This document shows positions 24,805 to 57,345 of a DNA stretch of 64,000 nt, in pieces. The notes beneath the pieces were generated by a model that saw only the letters and a program-made list of their open reading frames with translations, made no database searches and was not told where the DNA came from. The stretch is from Squalus acanthias. Lineage: Eukaryota. The position numbers were made by a program, and so were the translations under genes. Numbering within the stretch: position 1 is the first letter of the stretch; every line of letters begins with the position of its first letter. Where the stretch lies: positions 117,058,001 to 117,122,000 of the forward strand of contig CM059431.1 in the NCBI GenBank assembly GCA_030390025.1. Direction: 5' to 3'.

Positions 24805-26247
24805 TTATGTAATTGTCACAATTGGAGGTCGTTGGCAAATTTGTGCGATGAAATGGAAATGGCAGAGTGAAGGGTCAGGGCTCATTTCACACCCAGCAAT
24901 GGTGGTGAGAGTCAAAACAAGGGATGAATCATTGTTTGACTGCTGCATGGTGTTGATGTTGGGTGCTGCAAACAAGTGTACGTGGGTGGCAGCCACATGT
25001 ATGAGCTGCATCAAGTTATTGATGAGGGTATCCCTGGCGTGACGGGCTGCATCGTGCTCACATACTGGTCGCAGTGGGACTGCCGGCACATCCAGGTGTT
25101 CCTCATCCTCGTCACCAACCTCATGGTTAGCCTCCTCGTCCTCCGATGAGGCCCTGCGCTCAGCGCCATCTTCCTCATCCAGTACTAATCCTCGCTGCTG
25201 CCCTATGTTGTGCAGGGCGCAGCACACCATGATTATTCGGGAGACCCTGGCTGGTGTGTACTGAAGGGCTCCTCCAGATCTGTCGAGGCATCGGAAGCGC
25301 ATTTTGAGCAAACCTATTGTCCGCTCGATGACACTTCTTGTGGAGATGTGGCTTTGATTATAACATCCCTCAGGCTTGTTTGTTGGCCTCCTCAAAGGTG
25401 TCATGAGCCGCGTCTTCAGGGGATAGCCCTTTTCTCCAAGTAGCCAGCCGGCAAGACTGTTTGGCGGTGCGAAGAGCTGAGGGACGATGGAATGGTGCAG
25501 GATGTACGAGTCATGGCAGCTGCCAGAGAACTTGGTGCACACATGGATGATAATCTTCCTATGGATGCAGACCAGCTGAACGTTGAGGGAGTGGAAGCCC
25601 TTAAGGTTAACAAATGCCACTGGGTTGTGATGGGGTGCCCTGATGGCCACATGTGCATAGTCGATGACTCCCTGTACCTGTGGGAAGCCAGCTAGCGCGG
25701 CAAAGCCGAGCGCACGCTCATTGACACTGGCTTCATCAGTGGCAAAATGTGTATAGGTTGCGGACTTGTTAAAGAGGGCATGGGTTACCTGTGTGATGCA
25801 TCTGTGTGCGGCCGACTGCAAGATGCCACAAAGGTCTGCTGCAGATGCCTGGAAGGAGCCTGAGGCGAAGAAGTTGAGGGCAAGGGTGAGTTTGACAGCC
25901 ACTGGTAAGGAGTTTCCACCCCTTCCTCTGGGCTGCAGGTCTTGCTCCGGTAAAGCGCAAATGTCGGCGACAACCTGGCGCGATAGCCTGAGCCTCCTTT
26001 GGCACTGCTGCTCCGTCATGTTGAGGAAACTCACCCTCTGCCTGTATACCCTGTGTTGGGGGTATGATCTCTGACATAGTGCAGCCCTGCGCTGATGCTC
26101 ACTGCCCTGTGCAGCATCAGGTGGTTGAGGAGGAGGTTGGCGCTCTTGTTGTTGCTGCTGGTGGTGGTGTGGATGGTTCTGCTGCTGCTGCGGGTGATCG
26201 TCATCAGATTCGGAGTACCAAGGTGAGAGATCATAAACAGTGCCCAT
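24805..26247 (-). CDS. Harbinger DDE transposase ORF (480 aa), probably inactive
   Basis: Open frame with VIDYAH, LLGEKGY (D>E at the second catalytic Asp), IERTIG; the C-terminus appears to run past the usual stop. Confidence 0.85.
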
Positions 26248-42043: not shown

Positions 42044-43190
42044 ATGGGTGCTGTAGCTGTCATCCCCCTTGGCCTGCAGCATGACAGGGAGATGGAGCAG
42101 AGGCAGCGAAGAAGAGGACAAGCTGCTCGTAGAGGGAGGAGGAGGAGGGGGAGAAGGGCACTCAGCAGGAGGCCTTACTCACCTAGGGTCTTCCGAGAGC
42201 AATTCTCTTACCTCAGCCTGAGCCAGGAGCAGTGTGTGAGGCGTCTGCACTTTACAGAGGAGGTACTCACAGAACTCTGCCACCTCTTGCAACCAGACCT
42301 GCAGCCTCACACCAGGGCAAGGACAGCGCTGCCAGTGGCTGTGACGGTGACTGTGACCCTGAATTTCCTCGGGTCAGGATCTTTCCAGGCTGGAGCAGGC
42401 GACATTTGTAACATCTCCCAGTTCGCCATCCACTGCTGCTTAAGAGAGGTCACAGATGCTCTTTATGCCAGGAGAGGGGACTTCATTGCCTTCTATCTGA
42501 CCAGAGAGAAGCAGGCGGGGCATGCACATAGCTTTGCCAGGATAGCAGGCTTCCCCATGGTGCAGGGTGAAATCGACTGCATGCACGTGGCTTTGCGGGT
42601 GCCACATCTAAATGCTGAGATGTACCGCAACCGTAAAGTTTACCACTCACCGAATGTGCAGTTGGTGTGCGACCATGCTCAGCACATCCTCATAGTGACT
42701 GCTTGGTATCCTGGCAGCAGTCATGATGCTTTTATTCTGTGCCAGTCCATTGTTCCCGCAGTCTTTGAGCCATCACGACAAACCAGAGGGTGGCTACTGG
42801 GCGACAAGGGCTATCCACTGACCACCTGGCTCATGACGCCGCTCCGCAACCCACGTACATGTGGGCAGCATGCGTACAATGAGAGCCATGCTGCCACATG
42901 GAATCTGATGGAGCAGACCATTGGCATCCTTAAACAACACTTCCACTGCCTGGACCACTCTGGCAGTACCCACCAGAATGTGCCTCACGATTTGTCGTGG
43001 TCTGCTGCATGCTACACAACCTCACCATCATGAGAGTACAGCCCTTGCCACCAGACATACAGCGACCAGCTGAGGAGTAGGAGGAGGAAGCGGAAGAGGA
43101 TGAAGAGGAAGAGGAGGAGGCAACAAAGAGAGCCCTTTTCTGCCCGGGGTGTCTTTGAATGACTCATCCGATCACACAGCCAGTGAACAC
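42044..43190 (+). pseudogene. Harbinger transposase, frameshifted or deleted near the C-terminus
   Basis: GEIDCMH, LLGDKGY, MEQTIG; frame lost after CLDHSGS. Confidence 0.88.
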
Positions 43191-44148
43191 AACCCCAATT
43201 CCCCACCCCACACCTTACCTTCCCTCTGTTACTGACCATCACAGTTTCCTCTTAGCCACAATGGTAGAATAAAAGCCACCACAGAAGAAACAATCCAATC
43301 CAACTTTATACATCAATCCATCCAATATTACATAGCAAACTCAACTAATCACACTTGTGCATCCCCTTAGTGCCTGTTTTCAGTGTGCCTTTGCCTGTCC
43401 TCGTGCTCCTACGAAGTGCTACCCCAGTGGCTGCTGCATGGCTGGTGGAAGGCTGCTGACTTTCAGTGGGGGAGACTACAGAATGCCTTGCAGAAAAACC
43501 TTGAGCATCTCTGGGCCTAGAAGGCCCAGCTGCAGACTACACCACCACCTCACATGGGCTACAGCAGTCTGGGCTGTTTGGCTTGTAGAATTCGCAATTA
43601 TCGCGATTTCATTTTAATAAGGAGAAAACACAAGTTTCGTTCAAAACAGCTTTTATTTCAGCGGAATGCTGTCAGGTTTAAATTGGACACAAGCAGCCTG
43701 TAAAATGGCCGCCGCACCGCGTGACAGAACATTCGAGACTTTTCAGCAGGCAGACAAGATGGCGTTCCAATAAACATTTTTGCAGGATCGATAACGATTC
43801 AGCACAGTGAAGACAATACACAGGACATTATGGGTTTACAGTATAAACATCGATACTGGGATCGGTCTCCCAGGTACAAAGGAAAGCCATCAAGGGCCCA
43901 TCCAAAGGACATTAATATGTAAACTCCCAACGGCTCTACGATGAGAGAGCCGTTAGCAGGTAGTTATACAGGACACTTGGAAGCCCCAAACCCCTCCAGG
44001 GGGAACACCGACCGATTTAACAATGGGAGAAATATTAACAGGTACTCAAACATTCAGGAGTAGCCCCGAAACCCATTAAGGACAGAGATCACCCATACAG
44101 GACATTTTTGGGCGCCAAACCTTAAACAAAAGAATGGACATTGTAGTT

Positions 44149-44180
44149 AGGCGGGAAACGGAAGAACTGTGCACTATAAT
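44149..44180 (+). promoter_or_regulatory. Putative LTR promoter (GGCGGGA box and TATA)
   Basis: ggcggga...gcactataa is conserved in both solo LTRs. Confidence 0.55.
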
Positions 44181-44956
44181 TGCAGGCCCAAACCGTCCAT
44201 TCGCTCTCTTGCTCTTTTGCTCTTGACTCTTGCCGCTTGCTGCTGTTATCATCGTGGCTGCTCCTGTGTTTTATCCGGTCGATTCGTAACCTCGTGGCTG
44301 CTCCTGGGTAAAAGACTGTTGCAAAGACCTATGTTGGTAGCTGGCAGCGGAACCGAAGGCCCGGGATGAGATGAGATGAGATGAGATGAGAGGAGAAGAG
44401 AAGAAGACCTTATCCATCGCCACGGTCAGTAAATCCCGACCGCGCCTGTAGGTCGATCAGCCAAGTCTTCTCGACAGGAAGTTTTCTTCTTTAACAAGAC
44501 ATATTGCATCGATGATAACTGGACTGTGTAAACACATCGTATCAGTGATATTGACAACGGTGCTCCACGATTAAACTTTGAAGCCCACCAACAGAGGTCT
44601 TCACTACAGCGGACGGTCCAGCCGACTGACCGAGCAGCAGAAGCAGTAAACAAGTGGGACCAGGAGATCTCCTGACCAACACGTGGGTGCTGCGGTGAAA
44701 AACATCCGATCAGCTATTCGGGATTTCTCCGAGTTATTACGAGTGGTGAGCATGAGTCTCGGGATCCTACGAAGCTAGTTTTAGGATAGTTATTGATAGG
44801 GGAGGGTTTAAAGATTAAGGATATTTGTAATGTGTGCCCTATTTACGTTGTGCTGGTCGTTCCTCGTTTCCCTAAGAGTGATTATAACTGTTTGTAAGAT
44901 TGTACTGTCATTAATCTGTGCATATGACATGTATTTCATAATTTTAAGTATCATGC

Positions 44957-44962
44957 AATAAA
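44957..44962 (+). terminator. Poly(A) signal AATAAA (3' LTR copy at 55920-55925)
   Basis: atgcaataaagatt is conserved in the solo LTRs; aataaagatt also in the 37661-39180 LTR. Confidence 0.7.
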
Positions 44963-45208
44963 GATTTTCCATTTCGTACCGTTCAAACCAAGTCTACATG
45001 AGTTTTATCTCCATTACTGCTCTCGCATCTAAGTCCAGTGTCTAGAACCGTAAGGGAGAGTGATTCGAACCACTCACAGGGGTGTCTAGTGTTCCCAGAC
45101 TGGCTGGAGACCAGGCCTAGACCCGCACTGACATACAGGCTGCACAGAGCCGCGTGAACCTCACAGGCTACGAGACACGCAGGGTCAGGAGAGTATCCCT
45201 TACAGAAA

Positions 45209-47020
45209 ATGGCGACCGCGGCAGGACACTGGCAGCGAGAGGGTAGTGTGTTAGATTTTGGAATGACTGTACGAAATGTGATGCAGGAAAAGATAGCGGA
45301 TTACGTATTTGGAAAGGTTAATCTAACGAAAAAGTGGATAAGTGAACTGTTAGCGGATAAGAGCCCACTAGAGGCAGCTGAAAGGTGGACGGATAGTAAG
45401 GAGCATAAAAAGGCAGTTGAGAAAGCAGTCTGGCTTATGTGCTACAAAAGGCAGGTCCAGATTTCAAACCAGACCAATACAGCGCTAACCGCTCGAATCA
45501 AGCATCTAGAGGAGGAAATGGAGGAGAAGGTTTCTGGAGGGGAGGCGCTCATTAAGAGTTTAAATGAGTTACGCCAGGAAAGCCAGGAAGTCTCCAGCTA
45601 CCTTAAAACAAGGGTAGAGTATCTCGAGTGCCAGATCACTGAAGCAAAATTAAACGAGAGTAGGATGAAGGAAAGATGTAACCGTCAAGCTGCCCAGATA
45701 AGAACTCAAGAAGAGAGCTTAATGGGGGTTAGGTCGGCGTATAAGTTGGCCCTTGAGGATAAGTTTCAGGGAGCCGACCATAGCGCCTGCGAAAAAGAGA
45801 TAGAGAGCCTCAAAAAGGCCGTGAATAATGCGAACGGCATGGTGTGCCTTATTAATCCGTCGGCACGCCAGCCGCTAGTAAATGAGAGATTTAGAAATTC
45901 CCCACCAAGTAAAGCAGAAGAAGTAGTAGCCACTGCGCCCTCCGCGCCACCCAGCTATTCAGAAACCTGGGTTAGGGAGGAAGCAACGGAAGAAACAAAA
46001 GAGCCCGTTGAAAAGGAAGTAGAAAAGGGATCGTTGTATCCAGTAACGGGGATTAAAAGGGGCCCAAGCAGAAACGGTGGGGAAGAACCGGGGGATCTCC
46101 TCGGACAGCTGGTGTTGCCTCACAGTTCACATCAGCTGAGAGCCATGATAAACCACGTAAGGAAGCTGACCGAGATAGACGACCCTTCCGTACATTTCAG
46201 GGAAGTTGAGCAAGCCGCAGCCATTAACGGCTGCGATGATGGGGAGACAGCAAAAATGCTGCTGTTCTCATTAGACAGCTCGGTCCTTCAGTGCCTCTCA
46301 GGTGAGAGCAAGAGGGGAAACAAAAGTTATGAGGAATTGAAAAATGAGGTCCTAGAAGTAGTGGGAGCGAACGACGGAGGTCCGTTTGCTAGAGTGGGAC
46401 AGACAGTGCAGATGGAGGGAGAACCCCCGAAGGTTTTTGCCGACAGGCTGTGGCCAGTATATGAGCGCAGCTGTCTAGGTGCGCCCGAGCGCGAAGATGT
46501 GGAAGGCGCCGCTTTAATTCATTGGCTTAGGTGCATAATAGCCAACAGTTTACCAGCCGTTAGAGAGCAGGCAAAAGCCTGGTTCGATCCCAATGACCTC
46601 AACCTTACGGAAGAGTCGGTCTTGAATCGACTCACGTTAGGTTACCGTAACATAAGGGGTATGGCAACACGTCCCTTTAAGGGAAGAGTACATGAGGTAC
46701 GACCCGCAGCCCCGGCTCAAAGAGAGTGGCATCAGGAGGGTAATCGCGCCCCACAGGCAAGTAATGCCTGTTACGGGTGTGGGAAGACAGGGCACTGGCG
46801 CAAGCACTGCAGGAACCCTTGGAAGGATTCCAAGGATAAAAATCCCGCGGTCCGAACCCAGGCGCCTGTCCCGGCTAAGGAAGCAAAGGCACCCACCTCT
46901 CCCGAAGACCTCGAGGCAGTGTTAGGAGTCATGCGCAAGATGGTTTTGAATGCGCGTGGACAGGTGGCGGTCGCAACCGGCCCCGTAGGTGCCGCAGGAC
47001 CGTCTAATAGTGCCCCATGA
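45209..47020 (+). CDS. gag: Gag polyprotein (603 aa)
   Basis: N-terminal coiled-coil region, PSAPPSY late motifs, capsid-like region, CCHC knuckle CYGCGKTGHWRKHC (46769-46810); start codon uncertain. Confidence 0.9.
   Translation: MATAAGHWQREGSVLDFGMTVRNVMQEKIADYVFGKVNLTKKWISELLADKSPLEAAERWTDSKEHKKAVEKAVWLMCYKRQVQISNQTNTALTARIKHLEEEMEEKVSGGEALIKSLNELRQESQEVSSYLKTRVEYLECQITEAKLNESRMKERCNRQAAQIRTQEESLMGVRSAYKLALEDKFQGADHSACEKEIESLKKAVNNANGMVCLINPSARQPLVNERFRNSPPSKAEEVVATAPSAPPSYSETWVREEATEETKEPVEKEVEKGSLYPVTGIKRGPSRNGGEEPGDLLGQLVLPHSSHQLRAMINHVRKLTEIDDPSVHFREVEQAAAINGCDDGETAKMLLFSLDSSVLQCLSGESKRGNKSYEELKNEVLEVVGANDGGPFARVGQTVQMEGEPPKVFADRLWPVYERSCLGAPEREDVEGAALIHWLRCIIANSLPAVREQAKAWFDPNDLNLTEESVLNRLTLGYRNIRGMATRPFKGRVHEVRPAAPAQREWHQEGNRAPQASNACYGCGKTGHWRKHCRNPWKDSKDKNPAVRTQAPVPAKEAKAPTSPEDLEAVLGVMRKMVLNARGQVAVATGPVGAAGPSNSAP
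45210..45227 (+). other. Primer-binding site, tRNA-Arg
   Basis: TGGCGACCGCGGCAGGAC is the 18-nt complement of the 3' end (...GUCCUGCCGCGGUCGCCA) of vertebrate tRNA-Arg(TCG) as I recall it; 5 nt downstream of the LTR. Confidence 0.85.
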
Positions 47021-50000
47021 CTAGAACCAGCACAGCCCGTCTACCTGTGTCCGCTCAGCTATGATGCGTGGAGGCGACCTGTGGTGGAGATGGAGGTAGA
47101 GAAACAAAAGGGCAGTTATTTGTTGGACACGGGAGCTTCTTGCACCATAATCCATACAGATGACCCTTTTGACTCGCCGCTATCTACCAAGGTCCCATTC
47201 ACGCTAGCAGGGTTCACAGGGAAAGAACAGGCTGGCACGTTTTCCCTCCCGCTATCCATTCGTTTAGGGACACTTCGCCTTAAGTGGAAGTGTATACTGA
47301 TGGCATGGCAAAAGGGGGGTGGAAGAGGTATTCTCGGGTCCGATCTGCTAGCGGGACACGGGATCCTCGTGGACCTCAGAAATCACTGTCTCTGGGGGGC
47401 TAAAGGTGAAAAAGGCGAGGTAATGGTAATTCAAGGGGAGGAAGAAACAGGGGTCCTGTGTACCGTACAGCCATCCGGAGGCTACGACCTCAGGCTTATG
47501 GTCGCAGATGTCCCAACGGACATGCAAACGTACGTGACAGATAATATGCACGCGTTTGCAACCCACAAGCACGATTGTGGGAGGGTGGTCGGGTTTGAGG
47601 TCAGCGTAGATGGGGACCCCATGACCCGACCCCAAAAGCAGTATAACTTCCCCAAAGAAGCAGAACCCGATATGGAGGCAGCAATGTCTTCCTTGGTGCA
47701 GCAGGGCGTGTTGAGGCCGATAGCCACACACGTGAACTCCCCATTATGGCCGGTTAGGAAGCCGGATAATTCGTGGAGAGCCACGGTGGACTACAGAGTC
47801 CTTAACAGTAACATCCCCGCCTGCGCGCCCACAGTAGCAGCAGTTGCTGACCTAATAGGGAGCATCCCAGCGTCCGCGACCACGTTCACGGTGCTGGATA
47901 TCTCGAACGGTTTTTGGTCCATCCCGCTGCGGCGAGAGGACCAGTACAAGTTTGCCTTTACGTTTAAAGGGCAACAGTACACGTGGAACTGTTTGCCACA
48001 AGGTTTCCACAATAGCCCCAGTATTTTTCACCAGTGTATGGCAGGAAGTTTAAAGGAGTTTAGTCAGCCCAATCAGATAGTACAGTATGTGGATGATTTG
48101 CTCCTATTTACGGACTCAAGGGAGGAGCACGGACCACTGCTGGACGAGTTATTGGAGCTGTTAGCGAGAAAGGGTTTTAAAGTAAACCCAAAGAAAGCAC
48201 GTATCGGTCAGCAGGAAGTAAAATTCCTGGGACTGACCCTACGCGCTGGGGAAAGAGCCATAGACAAAGCAAGGAGGGAGTCGGTGCAAGAATTACCGAT
48301 TCCCAACAACGTAAGGGGTGTGAGGTCCTTCTTGGGACTGACCGGTTACTGCAGGGATTTTATCGAGGATTATGCGGCCACAGCGGCGCCGCTCCTCCGA
48401 CTCCTCCATAAGGGAGTAGAGTGGCTTTGGGACGAGGGCTGCCAAGCAGCCTTCGAGAAGTTAAAAAGGGATCTGCAGACCGCGCCAGCCTTAGGGGCCA
48501 TAGATGGGGGGAAGGAGTTTTTCCTGGAGGTAGCTGCCAGCGGAGACAGCTTAAGCGCCGTGCTGCTCCAAGAGCGTCACGGCAAGCTGAGGCCGGTTGT
48601 CTATTCATCCAGGGTATTAACGGATGTGGAGAGAAGTTTTTCCAATTGCGAAAGGCACCTTTTAGCCACGCATTGGGCTGTGAAAAGATCAGCGATCTTC
48701 ACAGGGCTCTCTCCCATCACTCTCCTCACACATCACACACCAACTAAGATGCTTCTGGATGGGAGGATTAAAGACGGGACCGTAAGCAGCGCACGCATTG
48801 CGCGTTGGACCCTTCTTCTCTCCCAGTTGGACATCAGAGTAAAAGGTCTTTGCGAGCCCAGGCTTGCGGCCAATTTGGTATACCCCGGTACAGCCCACCG
48901 GTGTTCGGTGGAGGGGGTGTGGGACGTCAACATAGGTTTACGGGCCGGGGTACATCCCACTGGGCGCGAGATTTATGTTGATGGGTCTAGCACAGTATCT
49001 GCTGGCGAGCGACTCACAGGGTGTGGAGTTTATGACCCTGCGGCAGACCTTGCCCTGGCGATCAAGCTCCCTAGCACCATGAGCGCGCAGCAGGCTGAGC
49101 TGTCTGCCGTGGTGTACGTGGTAACCCACCCAGACATTTTCCCAACCCCATACACGATTTGCTCGGACAGTATGTTCACCTGCAATTCGTGTACGGAATA
49201 CCTGGCCATTTGGTCCCGCCGTGGATACACCTCCGCGGACGGGCGACCTTTAACGGTAAAGCCCTTGCTGGAGAAGATCTTAGCAGCAGCAGTAGGGGAG
49301 GAAGGGGAGATTTTCATCCATAAGGTGAAAGCTCACTCCTCCACAGAGCCCCGTGGGGAGGGCAACCGGCAGGCGGATGCGCTAGCCAGGGAGGGTGCCC
49401 GCGACGGTACTTTCTGGAACCCCTATAGAACCGGACCCATAGCAGCGGTCCGAGGTGGGGACGGGAATACCGGGAACACCAGGGTAGCATTGCCCCTAGA
49501 CCTTAAGACCGTCCAAGCCCAGGATCCCGCCCTAAAAGCAGTCCTAAAAACGATTGCTGAGGGGAGGCAGGTAGAAGGTCCGTACAGTACGGCAACCCTC
49601 TCAGTTAAGGAAGGCATGCTGTTCCGCGAGGAGCAGTGGGTTGTGCCGCAGCAGCACAGGAGGGAATTCCTCCAGTTGGCTCACGAGGGACCAGGGGCAG
49701 GGCACCCCGGGCCCGAGGTTACCTGGCAACGGGTAGAGCAAGCGGGATGGTGGCCAGGGCTCAGGGAACAAGTCCGCGAGTTCTGTGCAAACTGTCTTGT
49801 GTGCGCTGCAAACAACCCAGACCCCCAGAAAAGGAAGGTGCCCATGGGACACGTAAGAAGGGTAGAGGGACCATGGCAGTCGATACAGATCGACTATATA
49901 GGACCCCTGCCCACCACCCAGGGAGGTTATAAGTACTGCCTCGTCCTGGTGGATGTGTTTTCCAAGTGGGTGGAAGCCTTCCCTTGTCGAACAGCTACGG

Positions 50001-51484
50001 CACTGGGTACAGCAAAAATCTTGGTCCGGGAAGTGTTCTCGCGGTGGGGACTCCCCCGTTTCGTGGAGTCAGACCAAGGGAGTCATTTCACCGGCCAGGT
50101 GATGCAGAACACCCTCATGCTTTTGGGCATTGAAGGGAAGTGGCACGTAGCACACAATCCCCAGTCATCCGGGATTGTTGAACGTATGAACCGGACCCTG
50201 AAGGAGAAATTGAGGAAAGAGACTAGGAACTCGCCCCAAAAATGGGCGGAAGTTCTGCCTTTAGTCCTCATGGGGGTCCGGGCCAGTCAGTCAAAAAGTA
50301 CGGGGTACTCCCCGCACGAGGTAATGACCGGCAGGCTCATGCGAACCCCCACCCATGTGCTAGCCCCGGTGCTCACTGAGGGTCAGCTTCAAGAGATCAG
50401 CAGGGACAAGTTCGCCCAAACTCTCTTGGAGCGCCTGAAGCAAGTTTATCAGCAGGCGGCTGGGAACATGGGAAGGCAGCACCAGGGCAATCGCTTGTTG
50501 CTGGAACCCCGCAAAACGCGGGAGTGGGAAGTAGGAGACCAGGTCATGGTCAGAAACTACGCCAGAGTAGGGAGTCTGGAACCACTGTATATGGGACCCT
50601 ACAACATTGTAGACAAGGCAAGTCCCATGGTTTACGCCGTAAAAGTACCTCGGGGCACTAAGTGGTTCCACATAAACCAATGTAAACTGTACCAGCCGGG
50701 TGCGCAAGGGAAAACTACAGGGGTAAATCCCGCCAATGGGAAAACACAGCCCCAGGTAGGACCACAAGGCACACAGGCAGGCGTAGCAGCTTGCATCAGG
50801 GGAAGGGACATCCCGGACGATCATGCAGCGTTTTTCTGGAGTTGGGGGTTAGATGACGAGGACCCCAGGGTACCCTGGTCAGATGAGGATAGTGCAGATG
50901 AGCATAGTGATGATGACGGGTGGTTTCAGAGGAACGGTCTGGAAGGATTGGGGCCGCTAGGTAGAGATCCATACGGGGTGGACACACAAGCTGCAGGTCC
51001 CGACAGCAGGAGGAAGGAGCTAGAGGAGGCCGGGCCAGCCGCTATGTGGTTCCCAGAGGTGTGGCCGCCCGCTTTGAACGTCCAGTCCTCAGGGGAGGCA
51101 GAGTTCGCGAGTGAAGGGCCGCCTGCTGGGCCGAGCAGGGCGGGGCCCCGAACTGCCAGCCCCGAGGTTAGGGAGGCGGAGTCAGCGGAGGCGGGGCTGG
51201 CGCCTGTGATGGAACCCCAGGTCATCCCGTTGAAGGTCTCGGGACCCGGTCCGTCCGTCACGGAGCCCCCGCCCATAGCAATTCCCCGTAGGTCAAGCAG
51301 AGTACCCCAGCCCAGGAAGATGTGGTCAGGTCCCCAGGCTGCCCTAGGGCGTAAGTTTCAGGTTAAGATAACCCGGGTAGAGACAGGCCACATCGAAGCA
51401 GTAACAGGCTGCGGCAGATCAGAGGAAAGGGTCAGTGCCCTCCCACCGTCGGGAAGAGCTCGCAGCAGCCTTCTCAGGATTTAA
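47021..51484 (+). CDS. pol: Pol: protease, RT, degenerate RNase H tether, RNase H, integrase, long tail; in frame with gag
   Basis: LLDTGAS; LPQGF, YVDD; IYVDGSS/AQQAEL/SDS/VKAH/GNRQAD; HHCC, D-D35-E (QIDY, SDQG, VERMN), GPY. Confidence 0.96.
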   Translation, partial: LEPAQPVYLCPLSYDAWRRPVVEMEVEKQKGSYLLDTGASCTIIHTDDPFDSPLSTKVPFTLAGFTGKEQAGTFSLPLSIRLGTLRLKWKCILMAWQKGGGRGILGSDLLAGHGILVDLRNHCLWGAKGEKGEVMVIQGEEETGVLCTVQPSGGYDLRLMVADVPTDMQTYVTDNMHAFATHKHDCGRVVGFEVSVDGDPMTRPQKQYNFPKEAEPDMEAAMSSLVQQGVLRPIATHVNSPLWPVRKPDNSWRATVDYRVLNSNIPACAPTVAAVADLIGSIPASATTFTVLDISNGFWSIPLRREDQYKFAFTFKGQQYTWNCLPQGFHNSPSIFHQCMAGSLKEFSQPNQIVQYVDDLLLFTDSREEHGPLLDELLELLARKGFKVNPKKARIGQQEVKFLGLTLRAGERAIDKARRESVQELPIPNNVRGVRSFLGLTGYCRDFIEDYAATAAPLLRLLHKGVEWLWDEGCQAAFEKLKRDLQTAPALGAIDGGKEFFLEVAASGDSLSAVLLQERHGKLRPVVYSSRVLTDVERSFSNCERHLLATHWAVKRSAIFTGLSPITLLTHHTPTKMLLDGRIKDGTVSSARIARWTLLLSQLDIRVKGLCEPRLAANLVYPGTAHRCSVEGVWDVNIGLRAGVHPTGREIYVDGSSTVSAGERLTGCGVYDPAADLALAIKLPSTMSAQQAELSAVVYVVTHPDIFPTPYTICSDSMFTCNSCTEYLAIWSRRGYTSADGRPLTVKPLLEKILAAAVGEEGEIFIHKVKAHSSTEPRGEGNRQADALAREGARDGTFWNPYRTGPIAAVRGGDGNTGNTRVALPLDLKTVQAQDPALKAVLKTIAEGRQVEGPYSTATLSVKEGMLFREEQWVVPQQHRREFLQLAHEGPGAGHPGPEVTWQRVEQAGWWPGLREQVREFCANCLVCAANNPDPQKRKVPMGHVRRVEGPWQSIQIDYIGPLPTTQGGYKYCLVLVDVFSKWVEAFPCRTATALGTAKILVREVFSRWGLPRFVESDQGSHFTGQVMQNTLMLLGIEGKWHVAHNPQSSGIVERMNRTLKEKLRKETRNSPQKWAEVLPLVLMGVRASQSKSTGYSPHEVMTGRLMRTPTHVLAPVLTEGQLQEISRDKFAQTLLERLKQVYQQAAGNMGRQHQGNRLLLEPRKTREWEVGDQVMVRNYARVGSLEPLYMGPYNIVDKASPMVYAVKVPRGTKWFHINQCKLYQPGAQGKTTGVNPANGKTQPQVGPQGTQAGVAACIRGRDIPDDHAAFFWSWGLDDEDPRVPWSDEDSADEHSDDDGWFQRNGLEGLGPLGRDPYGVDTQAAGPDSRRKELEEAGPAAMWFPEVWPPALNVQSSGEAEFASEGPPAGPSRAGPRTASPEVREAESAEAGLAPVMEPQVIPLKVSGPGPSVTEPPPIAIPRRSSRVPQPRKMWSGPQAALGRKFQVKITRVETGHIEAVTGCGRSEERVSALPPSGRARSSLLRI

Positions 51485-51768
51485 AGGGGCCGCCCTGAGA
51501 ACGGGCGGCATTGTAAAGTTATTAGTTTAAGGTTTTAAGTTTTAGTTTAAAGTTTTAAGTAGTTTTAATAAGGTTAAGTTTGTAGTGTTTTTAACAGATA
51601 ACGATAAAATGATGGGAGTTTTAAGGCTAGGTTTAGAGGAAGTCTATTTAGCAAACGTTGAAGTTTACGTGAGGCGAGGTCAGGGGACCCGCTCACCCTT
51701 CACAAAAGCCAGAGACTTTTTGCGAGGCTGGCTACCTCATTCTATCTGATCACAGGAACCAAGGAAGG

Positions 51769-54120
51769 ATGGAACGACTTCTAGTTTTGCTCGTGGCAAT
51801 CGGATGTGGATTGGCCTATCGGGGCCTCACCAAGGATGTCGTGGTGTTTGGATGTTCCGGGGACACGGCCCCCATCGCGGTGGATGGGACCGGAAGACGG
51901 AAGGCAGAAGGGACCAGCACCTATTTCCACAAGGGAAGGTGGCCAGGATGGCTGGGAACGAACTCAACGGAGTATTCCAGCACATCGGGGTTCGCCTACA
52001 AAGAGACTTCTTTAATGTGCCCCAAAGTACGGATCATCGCACCCAGGATCAGCGTCACCGTCGGCAAACGGATTTGTTTGACCTGCAGTGGGAATGTCCC
52101 ATTGAGCCGATGGTGGTGGCTGCGAAAGCTGAGCAAAACTATGAGGAACTCTTCGGTTGAGTGGGAGCGACTGGGTAATAATACCCATCGGACAATTACG
52201 GGGACAGATGGACAAGTGAAAGTCTGTTGGGACAAATGGTGGGAACCAGATGAGGGGATTTATGTTTGTATGTGGGGGTCAAAGTACGTTTGCCCCAAAG
52301 GCATCTCCATATTCTTTATTAACCAGTGGCAGGATAACGGACAGGGGATGAGGTGGGATGCGAGCACCAGGGGGTGCGGAGCCCCATACTCTCCGATCCC
52401 AGTAAATGCCACTGAGCTCATTACGCGCCCACGCAAAGCCCCGCCCACGATTCCGGTAGTTCTAACTGAGGAAGAAGGGTGCCCTAAAACTAGTAAGGGA
52501 CCCGGGAACGGTTTGGTACTGGTCCCCACAGACCAGATACTATTTCAGGGGGTACATTACGCGGTGGCCTCGGTGATTTTAAATCTCACTGAGGTACGGT
52601 TACCAGAGTGGTGCCCCAAAAAGACGGAACAGTTGTACCAGATCCTGTTGACCAAGATGTTCAGGCAATTTTACGAGTTTGATTTTGCAGAAATCGATAA
52701 GACAAGTTTATACACCGCACCGCAGGAAGTTTTGGACCAAGTAGGGAGGCAAAGAAGGGGTTTGGTGAACGATGCGTTCACTGCTTTTAACACAGGGACA
52801 TCTGTGGTCAACGCTCTAGACAGTGTGGAGCTGCAGACCCAGATTAATGGTTTAAAAACACAGTTAAAGGATATTCTTACAGATGAGAATAAAGTGGTAG
52901 GGTCGGGTCTGCACGAGGACCAAGCCATGACACTACACTTAAAAGAGATTATAGCAGAGCTGGAGAAACATGCGCGTACGGTAAATGCCCTGATTAGGGA
53001 AGATCGGAATGCATCCGATCAAGCTGCGCAGAACGAGGTGTGCGTGCTTTACGGGGCGTGGTTACTGGGCGAGGGCCGCAGTAATTTGGAGGATTTAAAA
53101 CAAGGTTTGGTCCCGTCCTGGATAAGTAACAAACACCTGCGGGCGCTCCACCCTTTTCAGAATGCATTAAGTCCGTGCCAGCTCAGGCTAGCTTCAGAAG
53201 CTTACCCAGTCCCCGTGGACTGCGGACGTTCAAACCATACTATTATGGGAATAGTATTACGCATGCCGGTTTTGGGCAACACAGCAAAGCCCGCCCCGGT
53301 ATATCGGGTAGAGAACATTGGTGTCATTCAGGGGGGAGCCCACATTCGTTATGCAGCGGTTCCACCTTACGTCATCCGCTGGGAGCAAACGATGACAGGT
53401 ACAGATCTCTCTGGTTGTCGTGGCAGGGGAGCACACATAATACTGTGCCCCCAGCACTTGAATGCCTTTTTAACACCACAGTGCGGGTTCAGAACGGCTG
53501 GCGCCAAGTCCATGAATTGCACCATGGAGGCAATGGCACAAGATCATGTGCCTCCGCAGGTAGCATACATCGGGGGTGGAACATATTGTGTTACCACTGC
53601 AGCGCAACACTACCAGCATGGAAACCGTAGCCGGTGTCCGGTGAGTGACAGCAGTTTCTGTTTTAAACCCAGGGCTGAAGTTCAAGTAGCACAACAGCGA
53701 ATTATCCCAATCCCTGAACCATCCACTGTTCATCTCACAGTAAAAGAGAATTTTACCGACTTGCAGCGATTTGTCGCACATTTTGGGTACCTCATTCCCC
53801 CTCTCCCTGAGCATTTAACCAAACTTCTAAAAGCCGTCGCGGTGTCACAAAAGCATTTCTATACATTAGAACAGAAAACCGTCGAGATAGGTACAGACAT
53901 TTTGGACATAGTGGTTCCACCGTGGTGGAATCTGTTCACGAATATTGAAGTGCCCTCATGGGTCAGAATAGCCTCCCACATTTTAGTCGTCTGTCAAGTG
54001 TTTATTGTAGTATACCTATTGTTCATACATTGTAAAAGAGACAAACGCCTCACCAAGCATGAGAACACGGGAGAATGGCGAGAACGTTACGTGCGCGTGC
54101 ACGACGAGAGCGCAGTGTAA
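51769..54120 (+). CDS. env: Envelope / class I fusion glycoprotein (783 aa)
   Basis: Signal peptide, N-glycosylation sequons, furin site RQRR (52747-52758), fusion peptide, heptad repeat, Cys-rich ectodomain, TM (about 53968-54033), short tail. Confidence 0.9.
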   Translation: MERLLVLLVAIGCGLAYRGLTKDVVVFGCSGDTAPIAVDGTGRRKAEGTSTYFHKGRWPGWLGTNSTEYSSTSGFAYKETSLMCPKVRIIAPRISVTVGKRICLTCSGNVPLSRWWWLRKLSKTMRNSSVEWERLGNNTHRTITGTDGQVKVCWDKWWEPDEGIYVCMWGSKYVCPKGISIFFINQWQDNGQGMRWDASTRGCGAPYSPIPVNATELITRPRKAPPTIPVVLTEEEGCPKTSKGPGNGLVLVPTDQILFQGVHYAVASVILNLTEVRLPEWCPKKTEQLYQILLTKMFRQFYEFDFAEIDKTSLYTAPQEVLDQVGRQRRGLVNDAFTAFNTGTSVVNALDSVELQTQINGLKTQLKDILTDENKVVGSGLHEDQAMTLHLKEIIAELEKHARTVNALIREDRNASDQAAQNEVCVLYGAWLLGEGRSNLEDLKQGLVPSWISNKHLRALHPFQNALSPCQLRLASEAYPVPVDCGRSNHTIMGIVLRMPVLGNTAKPAPVYRVENIGVIQGGAHIRYAAVPPYVIRWEQTMTGTDLSGCRGRGAHIILCPQHLNAFLTPQCGFRTAGAKSMNCTMEAMAQDHVPPQVAYIGGGTYCVTTAAQHYQHGNRSRCPVSDSSFCFKPRAEVQVAQQRIIPIPEPSTVHLTVKENFTDLQRFVAHFGYLIPPLPEHLTKLLKAVAVSQKHFYTLEQKTVEIGTDILDIVVPPWWNLFTNIEVPSWVRIASHILVVCQVFIVVYLLFIHCKRDKRLTKHENTGEWRERYVRVHDESAV

Positions 54121-54534
54121 TGGGAAAATGGCGTCACTCCCGCTCGCCACGTGCGCCGCGGAAGTTTGTACTCATTGTAAATACGTTGGAAACTCGACAT
54201 GTTTAAGAGTCGGGATTTGTTTATTTTGGTGATGGTGTTGATTGTTTGGTTTTTGGGTTTTGTTTTTCCTTCCCTTGAATAAAAGACAAATATACAGGTG
54301 ATGCGTGAGGTATCGGCCTGGTTACGCCGGGAAGGAAAACAAGTGGTGTAAGTTTAAGGGCAAATGATGCCTACGGTGATATAAAATGTGATTTTTTCTT
54401 GGGAAATGAGGACGACACAGAGACCCTAGTGAAGTTAAAATTTTATGGGATTAATTTACTGGATTCGGAGTGAAATCGAGATAAGATTGCTCACCACTGA
54501 GATTTTTGATACGATAAGCGGAGTTATTCGCATC

Positions 54535-54546
54535 AACAGGAGGGAC
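54535..54546 (+). other. Polypurine tract
   Basis: aacaggagggac immediately before the 3' LTR TG. Confidence 0.7.
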
Positions 54547-56167
54547 TGTAGAATTCGCAATTATCGCGATTTCATTTTAATAAGGAGAAAACACAAGTTT
54601 CGTTCAAAACAGCTTTTATTTCAGCGGAATGCTGTCAGGTTTAAATTGGACACAAGCAGCCTGTAAAATGGCCGCCGCACCGCGTGACAGAACATTCGAG
54701 ACTTTTCAGCAGGCAGACAAGATGGCGTTCCAATAAACATTTTTGCAGGATCGATAACGATTCAGCACAGTGAAGACAATACACAGGACATTATGGGTTT
54801 ACAGTATAAACATCGATACTGGGATCGGTCTCCCAGGTACAAAGGAAAGCCATCAAGGGCCCATCCAAAGGACATTAATATGTAAACTCCCAACGGCTCT
54901 ACGATGAGAGAGCCGTTAGCAGGTAGTTATACAGGACACTTGGAAGCCCCAAACCCCTCCAGGGGGAACACCGACCGATTTAACAATGGGAGAAATATTA
55001 ACAGGTACTCAAACATTCAGGAGTAGCCCCGAAACCCATTAAGGACAGAGATCACCCATACAGGACATTTTTGGGCGCCAAACCTTAAACAAAAGAATGG
55101 ACATTGTAGTTGGGCGGGAAACGGAAGAACTGTGCACTATAATTGCAGGCCCAAACCGTCCATTCGCTCTCTTGCTCTTTTGCTCTTGACTCTTGCCGCT
55201 TGCTGCTGTTATCATCGTGGCTGCTCCTGTGTTTTATCCGGTCGATTCGTAACCTCGTGGCTGCTCCTGGGTAAAAGACTGTTGCAAAGACCTATGTTGG
55301 TAGCTGGCAGCGGAACCGAAGGCCCGGGATGAGATGAGATGAGATGAGATGAGAGGAGAAGAGAAGAAGACCTTATCCATCGCCACGGTCAGTAAATCCC
55401 GACCGCGCCTGTAGGTCGATCAGCCAAGTCTTCTCGACAGGAAGTTTTCTTCTTTAACAAGACATATTGCATCGATGATAACTGGACTGTGTAAACACAT
55501 CGTATCAGTGATATTGACAACGGTGCTCCACGATTAAACTTTGAAGCCCACCAACAGAGGTCTTCACTACAGCGGACGGTCCAGCCGACTGACCGAGCAG
55601 CAGAAGCAGTAAACAAGTGGGACCAGGAGATCTCCTGACCAACACGTGGGTGCTGCGGTGAAAAACATCCGATCAGCTATTCGGGATTTCTCCGAGTTAT
55701 TACGAGTGGTGAGCATGAGTCTCGGGATCCTACGAAGCTAGTTTTAGGATAGTTATTGATAGGGGAGGGTTTAAAGATTAAGGATATTTGTAATGTGTGC
55801 CCTATTTACGTTGTGCTGGTCGTTCCTCGTTTCCCTAAGAGTGATTATAACTGTTTGTAAGATTGTACTGTCATTAATCTGTGCATATGACATGTATTTC
55901 ATAATTTTAAGTATCATGCAATAAAGATTTTCCATTTCGTACCGTTCAAACCAAGTCTACATGAGTTTTATCTCCATTACTGCTCTCGCATCTAAGTCCA
56001 GTGTCTAGAACCGTAAGGGAGAGTGATTCGAACCACTCACAGGGGTGTCTAGTGTTCCCAGACTGGCTGGAGACCAGGCCTAGACCCGCACTGACATACA
56101 GGCTGCACAGAGCCGCGTGAACCTCACAGGCTACGAGACACGCAGGGTCAGGAGAGTATCCCTTACA
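54547..56167 (+). repeat. 3' LTR
   Basis: Direct repeat of 43584-45204. Confidence 0.97.
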
Positions 56168-57345
56168 GGCTGACAGTTAACAGCAAGGGCACTGGTGGAG
56201 TGGCAGTGGTGGAAGCACAAATGCCGTCATCCTGAGAGAGGACAGCAGGTTTGTGATCCACAGAGCCATTGCCACTCCTACAGAGCGGCGTCTCAGCATT
56301 ACTAGCCATCTGTTGGAGGACAGATTGCTGGACTGCTGTGACACACTGCAAGCCCCTTTCCACATTGGTAAACACAGCCACGATGGCAGCAGTCTGAGCT
56401 TGCATGGCAGCAAGCTGAGCCTGCATGAGAGCAGTCTGAGCTTGTGTGACAGACGTCTGAGCTTCCACTGCAGTACTCAGACTTTGGGTGGCTTCTGTTT
56501 GTTCTACAGTGGAAGCTGAGACATCGGCCATCAGGCCCTGCATCATGGTTGGGCCACAAGTGCGCTAATGGAGTTGCCCATCACTTCCATGCTGGAAAGG
56601 ATGGGCTCCAAGCTCTGCGCAAAGCCCTGTGCAAGGTTGGTGCCAGACTCCTCCATGCTCCTTGACATTACACTCAGGCTTTCTGGCAGGCCTGCCAATG
56701 CAACAAGCATTTCATTGTGCATACCCATCAGCATTCTTCTGTAGGCCACCCCATCGAAGTCCTCATCTGAGTCCTGTGCCACAGAACTCATGTGCAACCT
56801 TGCCCTCCGGGGAGCTGGCACCTGTGCTACCCCCTGCCCTGGCTGCAGCCCATTCATGCCCGATGACTCAGCGCGTGCAGATCCCGCCTCTAAGTTACCC
56901 TCTAAAGTCCGCGCAGCGCCAGTATCTGAGCTGGTGGCGGCGAGTGTCTGATCGAGTGATGGTCTTTCTACTTCATCATCACTCTCCTCTCCCTCTTCTT
57001 CCTGCACCACTGCCTGGCCAGTTTGGATTTCTTCAGTCTCTGAAATGAGTAAGGCACCAGGGTACGGTTGTGGTGAGGGGAGGCGGGGAAAGGAAGAGAT
57101 GCATACTTACACCATGTGCAGCTTGTAAATCAGAAGAAATTGCGGGATGAGGGGGAAGTGGGATGTGAGAAGAAGGATTATGTATGAGGATACCAGCATC
57201 TTGTATTCTTTCAGCCCCTCTGCTGGCCACGTGCTCAGTGATGCCCCTCTCAATAATGGCCAGCACTGTCTTCTCCACGGGGATCGGGTTATGCAGGCGC
57301 ACCTGTCTCCTGCTGGAGCTGGTTGTAAGCCATCTTTTCCTGCAA
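56168..57345 (-). pseudogene. Harbinger Myb-like gene exons 2-3 (continues at 43583 and leftward)
   Basis: Acidic and Ala/Gln-rich ORFs 56543-57010 and 56163-56546, homologous to 60835-61323. Confidence 0.75.

What the first reader, a model, noticed from the sequence alone, without database searches (positions are those of the whole stretch)
52021..52278. Immunoglobulin-like domain at the N-terminus of Env
Seen: residues about 85-170 follow an Ig pattern: ISVTVGKRICLTC (A'/B strands), a Trp cluster about 10 residues later, and DEGIYVC (D-x-G-x-Y-x-C F strand). A Pro-rich linker follows before the fusion module. Inference: a captured host Ig domain acting as a receptor-binding or immune-mimic module on an F-type fusogen, which normally needs a separate attachment protein. 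I do not know of this arrangement in retroviral Env.
Basis: partly seen in the sequence, partly recalled or inferred. Interest (0 to 1): 0.85.

Follow-up and report, generated by a model that had tools for sequence, protein, structure and literature searches.

The report
Ig-like domain on shark retrovirus envelope
A very young, high-copy endogenous retrovirus of a cartilaginous fish has an antibody-like (immunoglobulin-fold) domain at the front of an envelope protein whose fusion part resembles paramyxovirus F, which probably gives this fusion machine its own cell-binding head.

Summary
Env (window 51769-54120, 783 aa) has, at aa 85-185, the immunoglobulin signature: B-strand C106, W115-117, D161-x-G-x-Y-x-C167.

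Support is consistent, but each line is only moderate:
- All 15 of 15 divergent genomic copies give sub-threshold Pfam Ig_3 hits (best E 1.9e-4).
- A profile-profile match to fish Ig domains beats 200 of 200 shuffles.
- Protein-language-model neighbours are Ig V/I-set clusters.
- The AlphaFold model (pLDDT 59) matches only antibody/TCR/receptor V domains (Z up to 7.5).

The domain is under purifying selection (dN/dS 0.08-0.19), and its variation sits in the CDR-like loops.

It lies in a 225-aa N-terminal extension: an unknown N1 part, the Ig domain, then a Pro-rich linker. Behind it is an F-like class I fusion module with an RQRR cleavage site. Of the 16 published lokiretrovirus env consensus genes I viewed, 15 go from signal peptide straight into the F2-like part.

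I read it as an acquired receptor-binding head. No host donor was found. Lokiretrovirus membership and the F homology are not proven. I found no description in print. It is a new variant of a known kind.

The parts
43580..43583 (+). Target-site duplication GGCT (5' copy)
   Evidence: Same 4 bases directly flank both LTRs.
43584..45204 (+). 5' LTR, 1621 nt, TG...CA
   Evidence: Direct repeat with 54547-56167, 1 mismatch in 1621 (window 44149 / 55112).
45209..47020 (+). gag (603 aa)
   Evidence: ORF. Only a weak zf-CCHC hit at aa 520-535.
47090..51484 (+). pol (PR, RT, RNase H-like tether, RNase H, IN, then a long C-terminal tail); same frame as gag behind a single stop
   Evidence: Pfam RVT_1 9.5e-36, RT_RNaseH_2 2e-21, RNase_H 2e-19, Integrase_H2C2, rve. 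Best PDB matches are MLV/XMRV RT 2.6e-68, foamy PR-RT 8e-58, Ty3 1.7e-40. Read-through context.
51769..54120 (+). env ORF, 783 aa
51769..51816 (+). Signal-peptide-like hydrophobic N-terminus (aa 1-16)
   Evidence: Judged from the sequence only. No predictor was run.
51817..52020 (+). N1 region (aa 17-84): conserved W-P-G-W-L-G-x-N-S-T core, no known family, fastest-evolving part
   Evidence: Alignment. dN 0.39-0.50 against other lineages. No Pfam hit. AlphaFold model of aa 1-260 unusable, pLDDT 34.
52021..52323 (+). Ig-like (V/I-type) domain, aa 85-185: C106, W115-117, R141, D161-x-G-x-Y-x-C167; extra conserved C84, C103, C153, C175
52336..52491 (+). Pro-rich linker (aa 190-241) with conserved C203, C238 and an N-A-T sequon
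   Evidence: 9 P in the 56 residues aa 190-245. dN 0.34-0.59.
52492..52758 (+). F2-like segment (aa 242-330), starting GPGNGLVL and ending at the furin-like site RQRR (aa 327-330)
   Evidence: Invariant G-P-x-N-G-L-V-L in 10 of 10 copies. Furin-like site. Same motif position right behind the signal peptide in published lokiretrovirus env consensus genes (read by eye).
52759..53955 (+). F1-like ectodomain (aa 331-729): moderately hydrophobic N-terminus, helical heptad-like stretches, Cys-rich middle
   Evidence: Language-model neighbours are Fusion glycoprotein F0 / Baculo_F / Gypsy Env clusters at 0.92-0.89. The heptad test is only weak: 64 of 500 and 24 of 500 shuffles reach the observed value. 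No HMM hit to F.
53956..54039 (+). Transmembrane anchor (about aa 730-757)
   Evidence: The only 19-residue windows with Kyte-Doolittle mean above 1.6 start at aa 730-739.
54547..56167 (+). 3' LTR
56168..56171 (+). Target-site duplication GGCT (3' copy)

Best explanation
The stretch is a real, divergent immunoglobulin-superfamily-type domain (V/I-like beta-sandwich, aa 85-185). It sits in a 225-residue N-terminal extension of the surface subunit of a retroviral Env whose remainder is an F-like class I fusion protein.

Proposed working:
1. Env is made with a signal peptide, glycosylated, and cut at RQRR (aa 327-330). This gives a large surface subunit (N1, Ig, Pro-rich linker, F2-like) and a membrane-anchored F1-like subunit.
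2. The N1+Ig head, held on the flexible Pro-rich linker, binds a cell-surface molecule through the loops at the CDR-like end of the Ig domain and/or through N1.
3. That binding triggers the fusion module in cis.

In this way one gene would do what paramyxoviruses do with two (attachment protein plus F). The layout is convergent with the receptor-binding domain / Pro-rich region / fusion-subunit layout of gamma-type retroviral Env.

Shown: the motif, its conservation, purifying selection, Ig-type profile and fold matches, and absence of the extension from the published lokiretrovirus env genes I viewed.
Inferred: receptor binding, cleavage, triggering, and that the domain came from a cellular IgSF gene.
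For: Ig nature:
- Pfam Ig_3 is the only domain family over aa 88-167. 15 of 15 divergent copies hit it, best E 1.9e-4.
- phmmer of the whole Env against PDB: 3 of 5 hits at E<=10 are Ig domains covering aa 80-175 (JAM-A, two antibody light chains), each at E about 1. They align C106 and C167 to the canonical cysteines.
- Family profile against PDB: 7 of 10 hits at E<=10 are Ig proteins (CRTAM x2, FcRL5 x2, light chains x2, VEGFR3), best Ig E 0.073.
- hhalign against sea-bass Ig domains: score 30.8, with 0 of 200 shuffles reaching it.
- Atlas neighbours at 0.91-0.94 are mostly V-set/I-set/Ig_3 clusters.
- AlphaFold on a 15-sequence alignment: pLDDT 58.8, pTM 0.54. Strands fall at aa 93-96, 102-107, 115-121, 141-146, 149-154, 161-170.
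- Foldseek PDB: the 50 rows shown are all antibody V domains, E about 0.01, TM 0.42-0.49.
- VIA-align over 48,161 chains: the rows shown are nearly all Ig V-type domains, best Z 7.2, rmsd 3.1 over 90 residues. The second look gives best Z 7.5.

A functional, selected element:
- C103, C106, W115-117, R141, C153, G163 and C167 are invariant in 15 of 15 copies.
- dN/dS is 0.08-0.19 in pairs where dS is not saturated.
- Variable columns cluster in the BC (107-113), C-C' (122-131), DE (144-149) and FG (171-174) loops, while strands B, C, E and F are constant.

A head added to a fusion module:
- Aa 17-240 are 48-59% identical between lineages, against 70-81% for aa 245-783.
- 15 of the 16 lokiretrovirus env consensus genes viewed lack any such extension.
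- The fusion module's language-model neighbours are F0 clusters, 0.92 with 206 of 256 shared features.
Against: - No single line is decisive. Every Pfam score is below the 30-bit cut-off, every PDB sequence E-value for an Ig protein is above 0.05, and the top profile hit against PDB (E 0.016) is a spurious ArfGAP zinc finger.
- The model is of middling confidence and lacks a G strand (aa 172-192 are below pLDDT 50).
- All structural Z-scores are below 8, a range the tool says is common for unrelated models.
- I could not read model coordinates, so the C106-C167 distance was not measured.
- The viral structure library gave nothing convincing, TM at most 0.41.
- Receptor binding is pure inference. 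N1 and the linker evolve faster than the Ig domain, so the specificity determinant may lie outside it.
- No cellular donor was found.
- F homology has no HMM support.
- My crude heptad test is weak.
Confidence: 0.6

Rival explanations
1. The Ig domain is a conserved scaffold or spacer. Receptor specificity lies in the N1 region (aa 17-84) or the linker, and the Ig domain only presents them or caps the prefusion trimer.
For: Against the other lineages, N1 (dN 0.39-0.50) and the linker (dN 0.34-0.59) diverge faster than the Ig domain (dN 0.25-0.33). The Ig core residues are invariant in 15 of 15 copies.
Against: Variation inside the Ig domain is concentrated in the loops at one end, as expected of a binding face. 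N1 has no recognisable fold, so nothing positive points to it.
Confidence: 0.2
2. The domain acts on the host rather than in entry. It would be an immune-mimic or decoy, or an adhesion module on infected cells, as with captured Ig genes of large DNA viruses.
For: The Ig fold is the usual currency of immune receptors. One ERV lineage is reported to have captured a whole IgSF gene: nectin3 with three Ig-like domains replacing env in CrocERV31 (PMC4299795, passages read).
Against: It is fused in frame to the only fusion protein of the element, upstream of the cleavage site. It is kept under purifying selection in every lineage that keeps the fusion module. No similarity to any particular immune receptor reached significance.
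Confidence: 0.1
3. It is not a homologue of cellular Ig domains. It would be a beta-rich viral domain that happens to carry Cys/Trp/DxGxYxC-like spacing, either by convergence or with another fold.
For: All database scores are sub-threshold, model confidence is moderate, and Z is below 8. Identity to any Ig structure is only 8-20%.
Against: Five independent kinds of test point to the same family and the same register: Pfam, PDB sequence search, profile-profile comparison with a shuffle control, the language model, and fold search. The conserved R141 and D/E161 fit the V-domain Arg-Asp pair (a recalled feature).
Confidence: 0.1
4. C103-L-T-C106 is a CXXC disulfide-isomerase motif like the one in the surface subunit of gamma-type retroviral Env. 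The region would then be a gamma-type SU relic rather than an Ig domain.
For: CLTC is the only C-x-x-C in Env.
Against: There is no CC anywhere in Env, so the partner C-x6-CC motif of gamma-type TM subunits is absent. The motif sits in a predicted B strand.
Confidence: 0.03

Closest known systems
Lokiretrovirus Env (Wang & Han 2020, PMC7947760): F-like Env of a retrovirus lineage sister to canonical retroviruses
   Same: - A retroviral env with signal peptide, R-x-K/R-R cleavage site, long ectodomain and TM anchor.
- The F2-like part begins with the same G-P-x-x-G-[IVL]-x-L motif.
- pol has a dual RNase H.
   Different: - 15 of 16 published env consensus genes viewed have no N-terminal extension. 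Here 225 residues (N1, Ig, linker) are inserted between the signal peptide and that motif.
- The post-cleavage peptide here is much less hydrophobic.
- No Pfam PF00523 hit here, whereas the paper reports E 2.2e-7 for one of theirs (passage read).
- Their screen lists 0 of 6 chondrichthyan genomes as positive.
- No RT phylogeny was done here.
Paramyxovirus/pneumovirus fusion protein F (PF00523)
   Same: Class I layout: a short F2-like piece, furin site, a long F1 with a globular Cys-rich middle, and a TM anchor. The nearest language-model clusters are F0.
   Different: - From recall, F has no N-terminal Ig head, and paramyxoviruses use a separate attachment protein.
- From recall, the Ig-like domain II of F lies inside F1, not at the N-terminus.
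- No HMM-level similarity was found here.
Gamma-type retroviral Env (MLV-like): Ig-like-core receptor-binding domain, Pro-rich region, C-domain, TM (layout recalled; PMC9967133 seen in search listings only)
   Same: Same logic: an N-terminal beta-sandwich binding head on a Pro-rich linker in front of the fusion machinery.
   Different: - The fusion module is unrelated, with no C-x6-CC motif.
- The head here carries the canonical IgSF sequence signature, which, from recall, gamma-type receptor-binding domains do not.
CrocERV31 capture of nectin3 (Chong et al. 2014, PMC4299795)
   Same: A retrovirus-like element that carries IgSF sequence in the env position (passages read).
   Different: There a whole host mRNA (three Ig domains, about 76% identical to the host gene) replaces env. 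Here a single, very divergent Ig domain is fused in frame to a retained fusion protein, and no donor is recognisable.

Membership tests
Immunoglobulin superfamily domain (V/I-type) | Two cysteines about 55-75 residues apart on strands B and F | tested here: met
   C106 and C167 are 61 apart. They are invariant in 15 of 15 copies. They lie in predicted strands 102-107 and 161-170. HMMER and hhalign align them to the canonical cysteines.
Immunoglobulin superfamily domain (V/I-type) | Invariant Trp on strand C, 10-15 residues after the first Cys | tested here: met
   W115-W116-W117 lie 9-11 residues after C106, are invariant in 15 of 15 copies, and sit in predicted strand 115-121.
Immunoglobulin superfamily domain (V/I-type) | D/E-x-G-x-Y-x-C motif before strand F | tested here: met
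   DEGIYVC at aa 161-167 in this copy. Other lineages have E/D-x-G-[IVF]-Y-x-C, and one of 22 aligned sequences has C in place of Y.
Immunoglobulin superfamily domain (V/I-type) | Match to a curated Ig profile above its threshold | tested here: inconclusive
   Ig_3 is hit by 15 of 15 copies, best E 1.9e-4. All are below the 30-bit gathering score; this copy scores 15.9 bits.
Immunoglobulin superfamily domain (V/I-type) | Two-sheet Greek-key beta-sandwich | tested here: inconclusive
   The model (pLDDT 58.8) has six of the expected strands but no G strand. The rows shown in three fold searches are nearly all Ig V-type domains, but Z is at most 7.5 and TM at most 0.49.
Immunoglobulin superfamily domain (V/I-type) | B-F cysteines within disulfide distance | not testable with these tools
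   Model coordinates are not returned by the tools.
F-type class I fusion glycoprotein (PF00523 / Baculo_F superfamily) | Profile-level sequence similarity | tested here: not met
   No PF00523 or PF12259 hit at E<=1 on Env, or at E<=10 on any of 10 copies. A profile against PDB gave no F protein.
F-type class I fusion glycoprotein (PF00523 / Baculo_F superfamily) | Short F2, furin site, fusion peptide, two heptad regions far apart, TM anchor | tested here: inconclusive
   RQRR at aa 327-330 and a TM at about 730-757. The peptide after the cut is only moderately hydrophobic. Heptad periodicity is weak: 64 of 500 and 24 of 500 shuffles reach it. Language-model neighbours are F0 clusters at 0.92, which is a lead only.
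Lokiretroviruses | RT phylogeny sister to canonical retroviruses | not tested
   No reference sequences were available through the tools. The RT-RH matches MLV RT (234 bits over 570 aa), foamy PR-RT (199 bits) and Ty3 (142 bits over about 380 aa) at similar bits per residue. That fits a deep branch but proves nothing.
Lokiretroviruses | Dual RNase H (tether plus new RNase H) | tested here: met
   RT_RNaseH_2 2e-21 at aa 447-535 and RNase_H 2e-19 at aa 627-770 of Pol.
Lokiretroviruses | Env similar to Mononegavirales F | tested here: inconclusive
   See the F-type rows. The start motif of the F2-like part is shared with published lokiretrovirus env genes, read by eye.

The most novel reading that the evidence does not exclude
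An ancestor of this elasmobranch retrovirus lineage took one Ig domain from a host cell-adhesion or immune receptor and fused it to an F-type fusogen. The virus would then find its target cells by the stolen domain's natural (possibly homophilic) partner. That would be a natural one-gene solution to retargeting a paramyxovirus-like fusion machine. It may underlie the very large and very recent germline expansion of the family: at least 150 copies with identical head sequence, and thousands of candidates.
Probability: 0.2. Interest if true: 0.85.

Novelty: new variant of a known kind. Interest (0 to 1): 0.62.

Why it matters
F-type fusion proteins are usually discussed as machines that are triggered by a separate attachment protein or that work alone. 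A natural F-like Env with a modular, sequence-recognisable Ig head on a Pro-rich tether would show how such a fusogen gains its own receptor-binding domain. It would also be a convergent parallel to gamma-type retroviral Env.

It extends retroviruses with F-like Env to cartilaginous fishes, where the founding lokiretrovirus survey reported none. The family is abundant and very young, with intact env frames. Many natural variants are therefore available for comparing head and fusion-module evolution.

It also explains several mis-annotated 'host' gene models in shark and skate genomes.

Tried and rejected
- AlphaFold on aa 1-260 with a 9-row alignment gave pLDDT 34 and was unusable.
- The PDB profile search with alignment A1 was hijacked by zinc fingers from a fused gene model, P0003. 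I repeated it with clean alignments.
- Foldseek against the viral library BFVD gave only phage tail-fibre-like rows, TM at most 0.41. No viral relative of the domain was found.
- P0010, a 5014-aa G/A/D-rich protein, E 4.8e-11, is judged a composition artefact from its sequence.
- IMG/VR scans with the fusion-module and head alignments found nothing. The metagenome scan with the head alignment found nothing.
- Word-index protein searches found only elasmobranch ERV fragments.
- Expression: no RNA holder is listed. Contigs of four runs cover the provirus, but no leader-to-env joint was seen and contigs cannot show transcripts. Nothing can be said either way.
- A host donor search in the window's own genome was not possible. 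Both own-genome searches return only the 150 best rows, and all of them are ERV copies.
- Published lokiretrovirus consensus sequences were read by eye only. I did not pass them to any tool, so there is no alignment or tree with them.
- The siglec-like reading of the extra B/E cysteines (C103, C153) is a recalled resemblance only. No siglec appears among the rows shown.
- Earlier-findings look-ups returned nothing relevant.
Full report
**What is at the coordinates.**
The window holds a complete provirus:
- Two 1621-nt LTRs (43584-45204 and 54547-56167). They differ at one base and are flanked by a GGCT duplication.
- gag at 45209-47020.
- pol at 47090-51484, in the same frame as gag behind a single stop.
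- A 783-aa env at 51769-54120.

The finding's span, 52021-52278, is env codons 85-170. ISVTVGKRICLTC is aa 94-106, the Trp cluster is W115-117, and DEGIYVC is aa 161-167. A Pro-rich stretch follows: 9 P in aa 190-245.

**Is it an Ig domain?**
Sequence evidence:
- Pfam gives Ig_3 as the only domain family over this stretch. E is 0.43 on the whole Env, 0.079 on aa 17-230 and 0.019 on aa 78-192, covering profile positions 5-74 of 78. All scores are below the 30-bit cut-off.
- phmmer of Env against PDB gave 5 hits at E<=10. Three are Ig domains over aa 80-175 (JAM-A and two antibody light chains), each at E about 1.

To gain power I collected relatives:
- The exhaustive search of 1.84 billion representatives with aa 17-240 found 11 proteins. 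Nine are env fragments in gene models or contigs: Rhinoraja longicauda, Pristiophorus japonicus, Rhincodon typus, and two metagenome contigs.
- One hit is a sea-bass protein with 12 Ig_3 stretches, E 7e-5 over 6 stretches.
- One is a G/A/D-rich 5014-aa protein that I take as a composition artefact.
- The window's own 3.7-Gb genome holds at least 150 copies whose aa 17-240 are 100% identical, out of 6073 first-look candidates. 120 of these 150 lie in an 815-codon open frame.
- The same genome holds many divergent lineages, 53-60% identical to P0006. I fetched 20 of these.

With a 15-sequence alignment of aa 78-192 (A2):
- 15 of 15 members hit Ig_3, best E 1.9e-4.
- The profile against PDB gave 10 hits at E<=10. 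Seven are Ig proteins, best E 0.073 for the CRTAM V domain. The top hit (E 0.016) is a spurious zinc finger.
- hhalign against five Ig domains of the sea-bass protein gave probability 68% and score 30.8. It places C106 and C167 on the B- and F-strand cysteines. 0 of 200 column shuffles reached that score: mean 11.3, sd 2.5, max 24.2.
- The language-model atlas puts the domain next to V-set/I-set/Ig_3 clusters at 0.91-0.94.

Structure evidence:
- AlphaFold failed on aa 1-260, pLDDT 34.
- On A2 it gave pLDDT 58.8 and pTM 0.54, with strands at aa 93-96, 102-107, 115-121, 141-146, 149-154 and 161-170. There is no confident G strand.
- Foldseek against PDB: all 50 rows shown are antibody V domains, E about 0.01, TM 0.42-0.49.
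- VIA-align against 48,161 representatives: the rows shown are nearly all Ig V-type domains (TCR and antibody V, pIgR, TREM, NKp44, CD8, MPZ, PD-1, JAM-A). The best is Z 7.2, rmsd 3.1 over 90 residues.
- The second look gave Z up to 7.5.
- All Z are below 8, which the tool warns is a common range.

Taken together, I put the Ig fold at about 0.85.

**Is it a working part?**
- C84, C103, C106, W115-117, R141, C153, G163 and C167 are invariant in the 15 copies. C175 is nearly so.
- Where dS is not saturated, dN/dS of the domain is 0.08-0.19.
- Variable columns fall in the BC, C-C', DE and FG loops, while strands B, C, E and F are constant. This is the pattern of a V-type domain with a binding end.
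- The flanking N1 region (aa 17-84) and the linker evolve faster: dN 0.39-0.50 and 0.34-0.59, against 0.25-0.33 for Ig and 0.13-0.19 for the F1-like part.
- Overall, aa 17-240 are 48-59% identical between lineages, against 70-81% for aa 245-783.

**What it is attached to.**
- After the linker, Env continues with an invariant GPGNGLVL at aa 242.
- A furin-like RQRR lies at aa 327-330, followed by a long ectodomain with 10 cysteines and a single TM at about aa 730-757.
- Pfam and PDB profile searches find no F protein.
- My heptad test is weak: 64 of 500 and 24 of 500 shuffles reach the observed value.
- The language-model neighbours of aa 243-745 are Fusion glycoprotein F0 clusters (0.92, 206 of 256 features), then Baculo_F and Gypsy Env clusters.

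In the supplement of the lokiretrovirus paper (PMC7947760) I read by eye the first lines of 16 of its 23 env consensus genes. In 15 of them, the signal peptide is followed at once by G-P-x-x-G-[IVT]-x-L, and an R/K-rich cleavage site plus a hydrophobic peptide comes within roughly 120 codons. The coelacanth entry starts differently. The fusion module here therefore looks like a divergent relative of lokiretrovirus Env, and the 225-residue head is an addition.

That paper's tables list 0 of 6 chondrichthyan genomes as positive, including whale shark. Two of my env-fragment hits come from whale shark.

Pol has a dual RNase H. Its RT-RH matches MLV, foamy virus and Ty3 at similar bits per residue. 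I did not make a tree, so 'loki' remains a lead.

**How it most likely works.**
The head (N1 plus Ig) on a Pro-rich tether is the receptor-binding part of the surface subunit, and it triggers the F-like module in cis. The layout parallels the gamma-type Env layout of receptor-binding domain, Pro-rich region and fusion subunit (recalled). None of this was tested.

The rivals are a scaffold role with specificity in N1, an immune-mimic role, a non-homologous beta domain, and a CXXC isomerase motif. The last is disfavoured because Env has no CC, and so no C-x6-CC.

**Origin.**
No donor could be named. The only cellular hit is generic Ig similarity over strands A-C: BLASTP E 0.001-0.01 per repeat.

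One precedent for IgSF capture by an ERV exists: nectin3 replacing env in CrocERV31 (PMC4299795, passages read). That case is a whole recent gene, not a fused single domain.

**Novelty.**
Four searches found no description of an Ig-type domain on a lokiretrovirus-like or F-type retroviral Env, or of this elasmobranch family:
- 'lokiretrovirus': 15 papers.
- 'lokiretrovirus' plus 'shark': 3 papers.
- ERV / envelope / immunoglobulin-like domain / captured / receptor-binding domain: 55 papers with at least 4 of 5 terms.
- ERV / elasmobranch / env / fusion glycoprotein: 59 papers with at least 3 of 4 terms.

I also read passages of PMC7947760, PMC9040795, PMC13709493, PMC11089739 and bioRxiv 10.1101/2023.10.26.564294. 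None mentions it. Subscription journals and bioRxiv supplements were not searchable.

**Verdict.**
This is a new variant of a known kind: a class I viral fusion protein with an N-terminal binding head. Here the combination is unreported, an IgSF-type domain on an F-like retroviral Env. Interest 0.62.

Noticed in passing
window 43584-56171: The provirus has unusually long LTRs (1621 nt) that differ at 1 base, with a 4-bp GGCT target duplication. The gag ATG (45209) lies only 5 nt behind the 5' LTR and overlaps a TGG-starting stretch that looks like a primer-binding site (a recalled resemblance, not tested).
   Followed up: partly
own genome G000: The family is huge and partly very young. At least 150 copies have Env aa 17-240 100% identical to the window's, out of 6073 first-look candidates. 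120 of these 150 lie in an 815-codon open frame. Several older lineages have saturated dS against this one.
   Followed up: partly
window 47018-47089: gag and pol are in the same frame, separated by a single stop codon. This suggests stop-codon read-through rather than frameshifting.
   Followed up: no
window 50717-51484: Pol carries a tail of about 250 residues behind the integrase, with no Pfam family. In three of the four runs laid, contigs show a variant with a 38-nt tandem duplication at 51398-51435.
   Followed up: no
window 51817-52020: The N1 region of Env (aa 17-84) has a conserved W-P-G-W-L-G-x-N-S-T...Y-S-S core and one invariant Cys (C29). It has no detectable family or confident fold. 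It evolves faster than the Ig domain.
   Followed up: partly
P0003, P0004, P0013: Public gene models of Pristiophorus japonicus fuse fragments of this env to host genes named zinc finger protein ZFP2-like, Niban 1-like and cadherin-related 5-like. These are probably annotation artefacts of ERV insertions.
   Followed up: no
window 2856-3569 (-), 24805-26247 (-), 42044-43033 (+): Three ORFs have DDE_Tnp_4 (PIF/Harbinger-type) transposase domains, E 2.1e-39, 5.7e-31 and 9.5e-25.
   Followed up: no
window 51500-54200: Near-identical env words (share 0.54-0.72) are held by public runs labelled with seven different organism codes in eight studies. The element or very close relatives may therefore occur in several species. 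The labels are coded, and I did not pursue them.
   Followed up: no
window 45440-45780 (gag aa about 80-190): The N-terminal third of Gag gives only weak coiled-coil-type Pfam hits, E 0.1-0.7. The lokiretrovirus paper reports an SMC-like gene in some members (passage read). Any relation was not examined.
   Followed up: no
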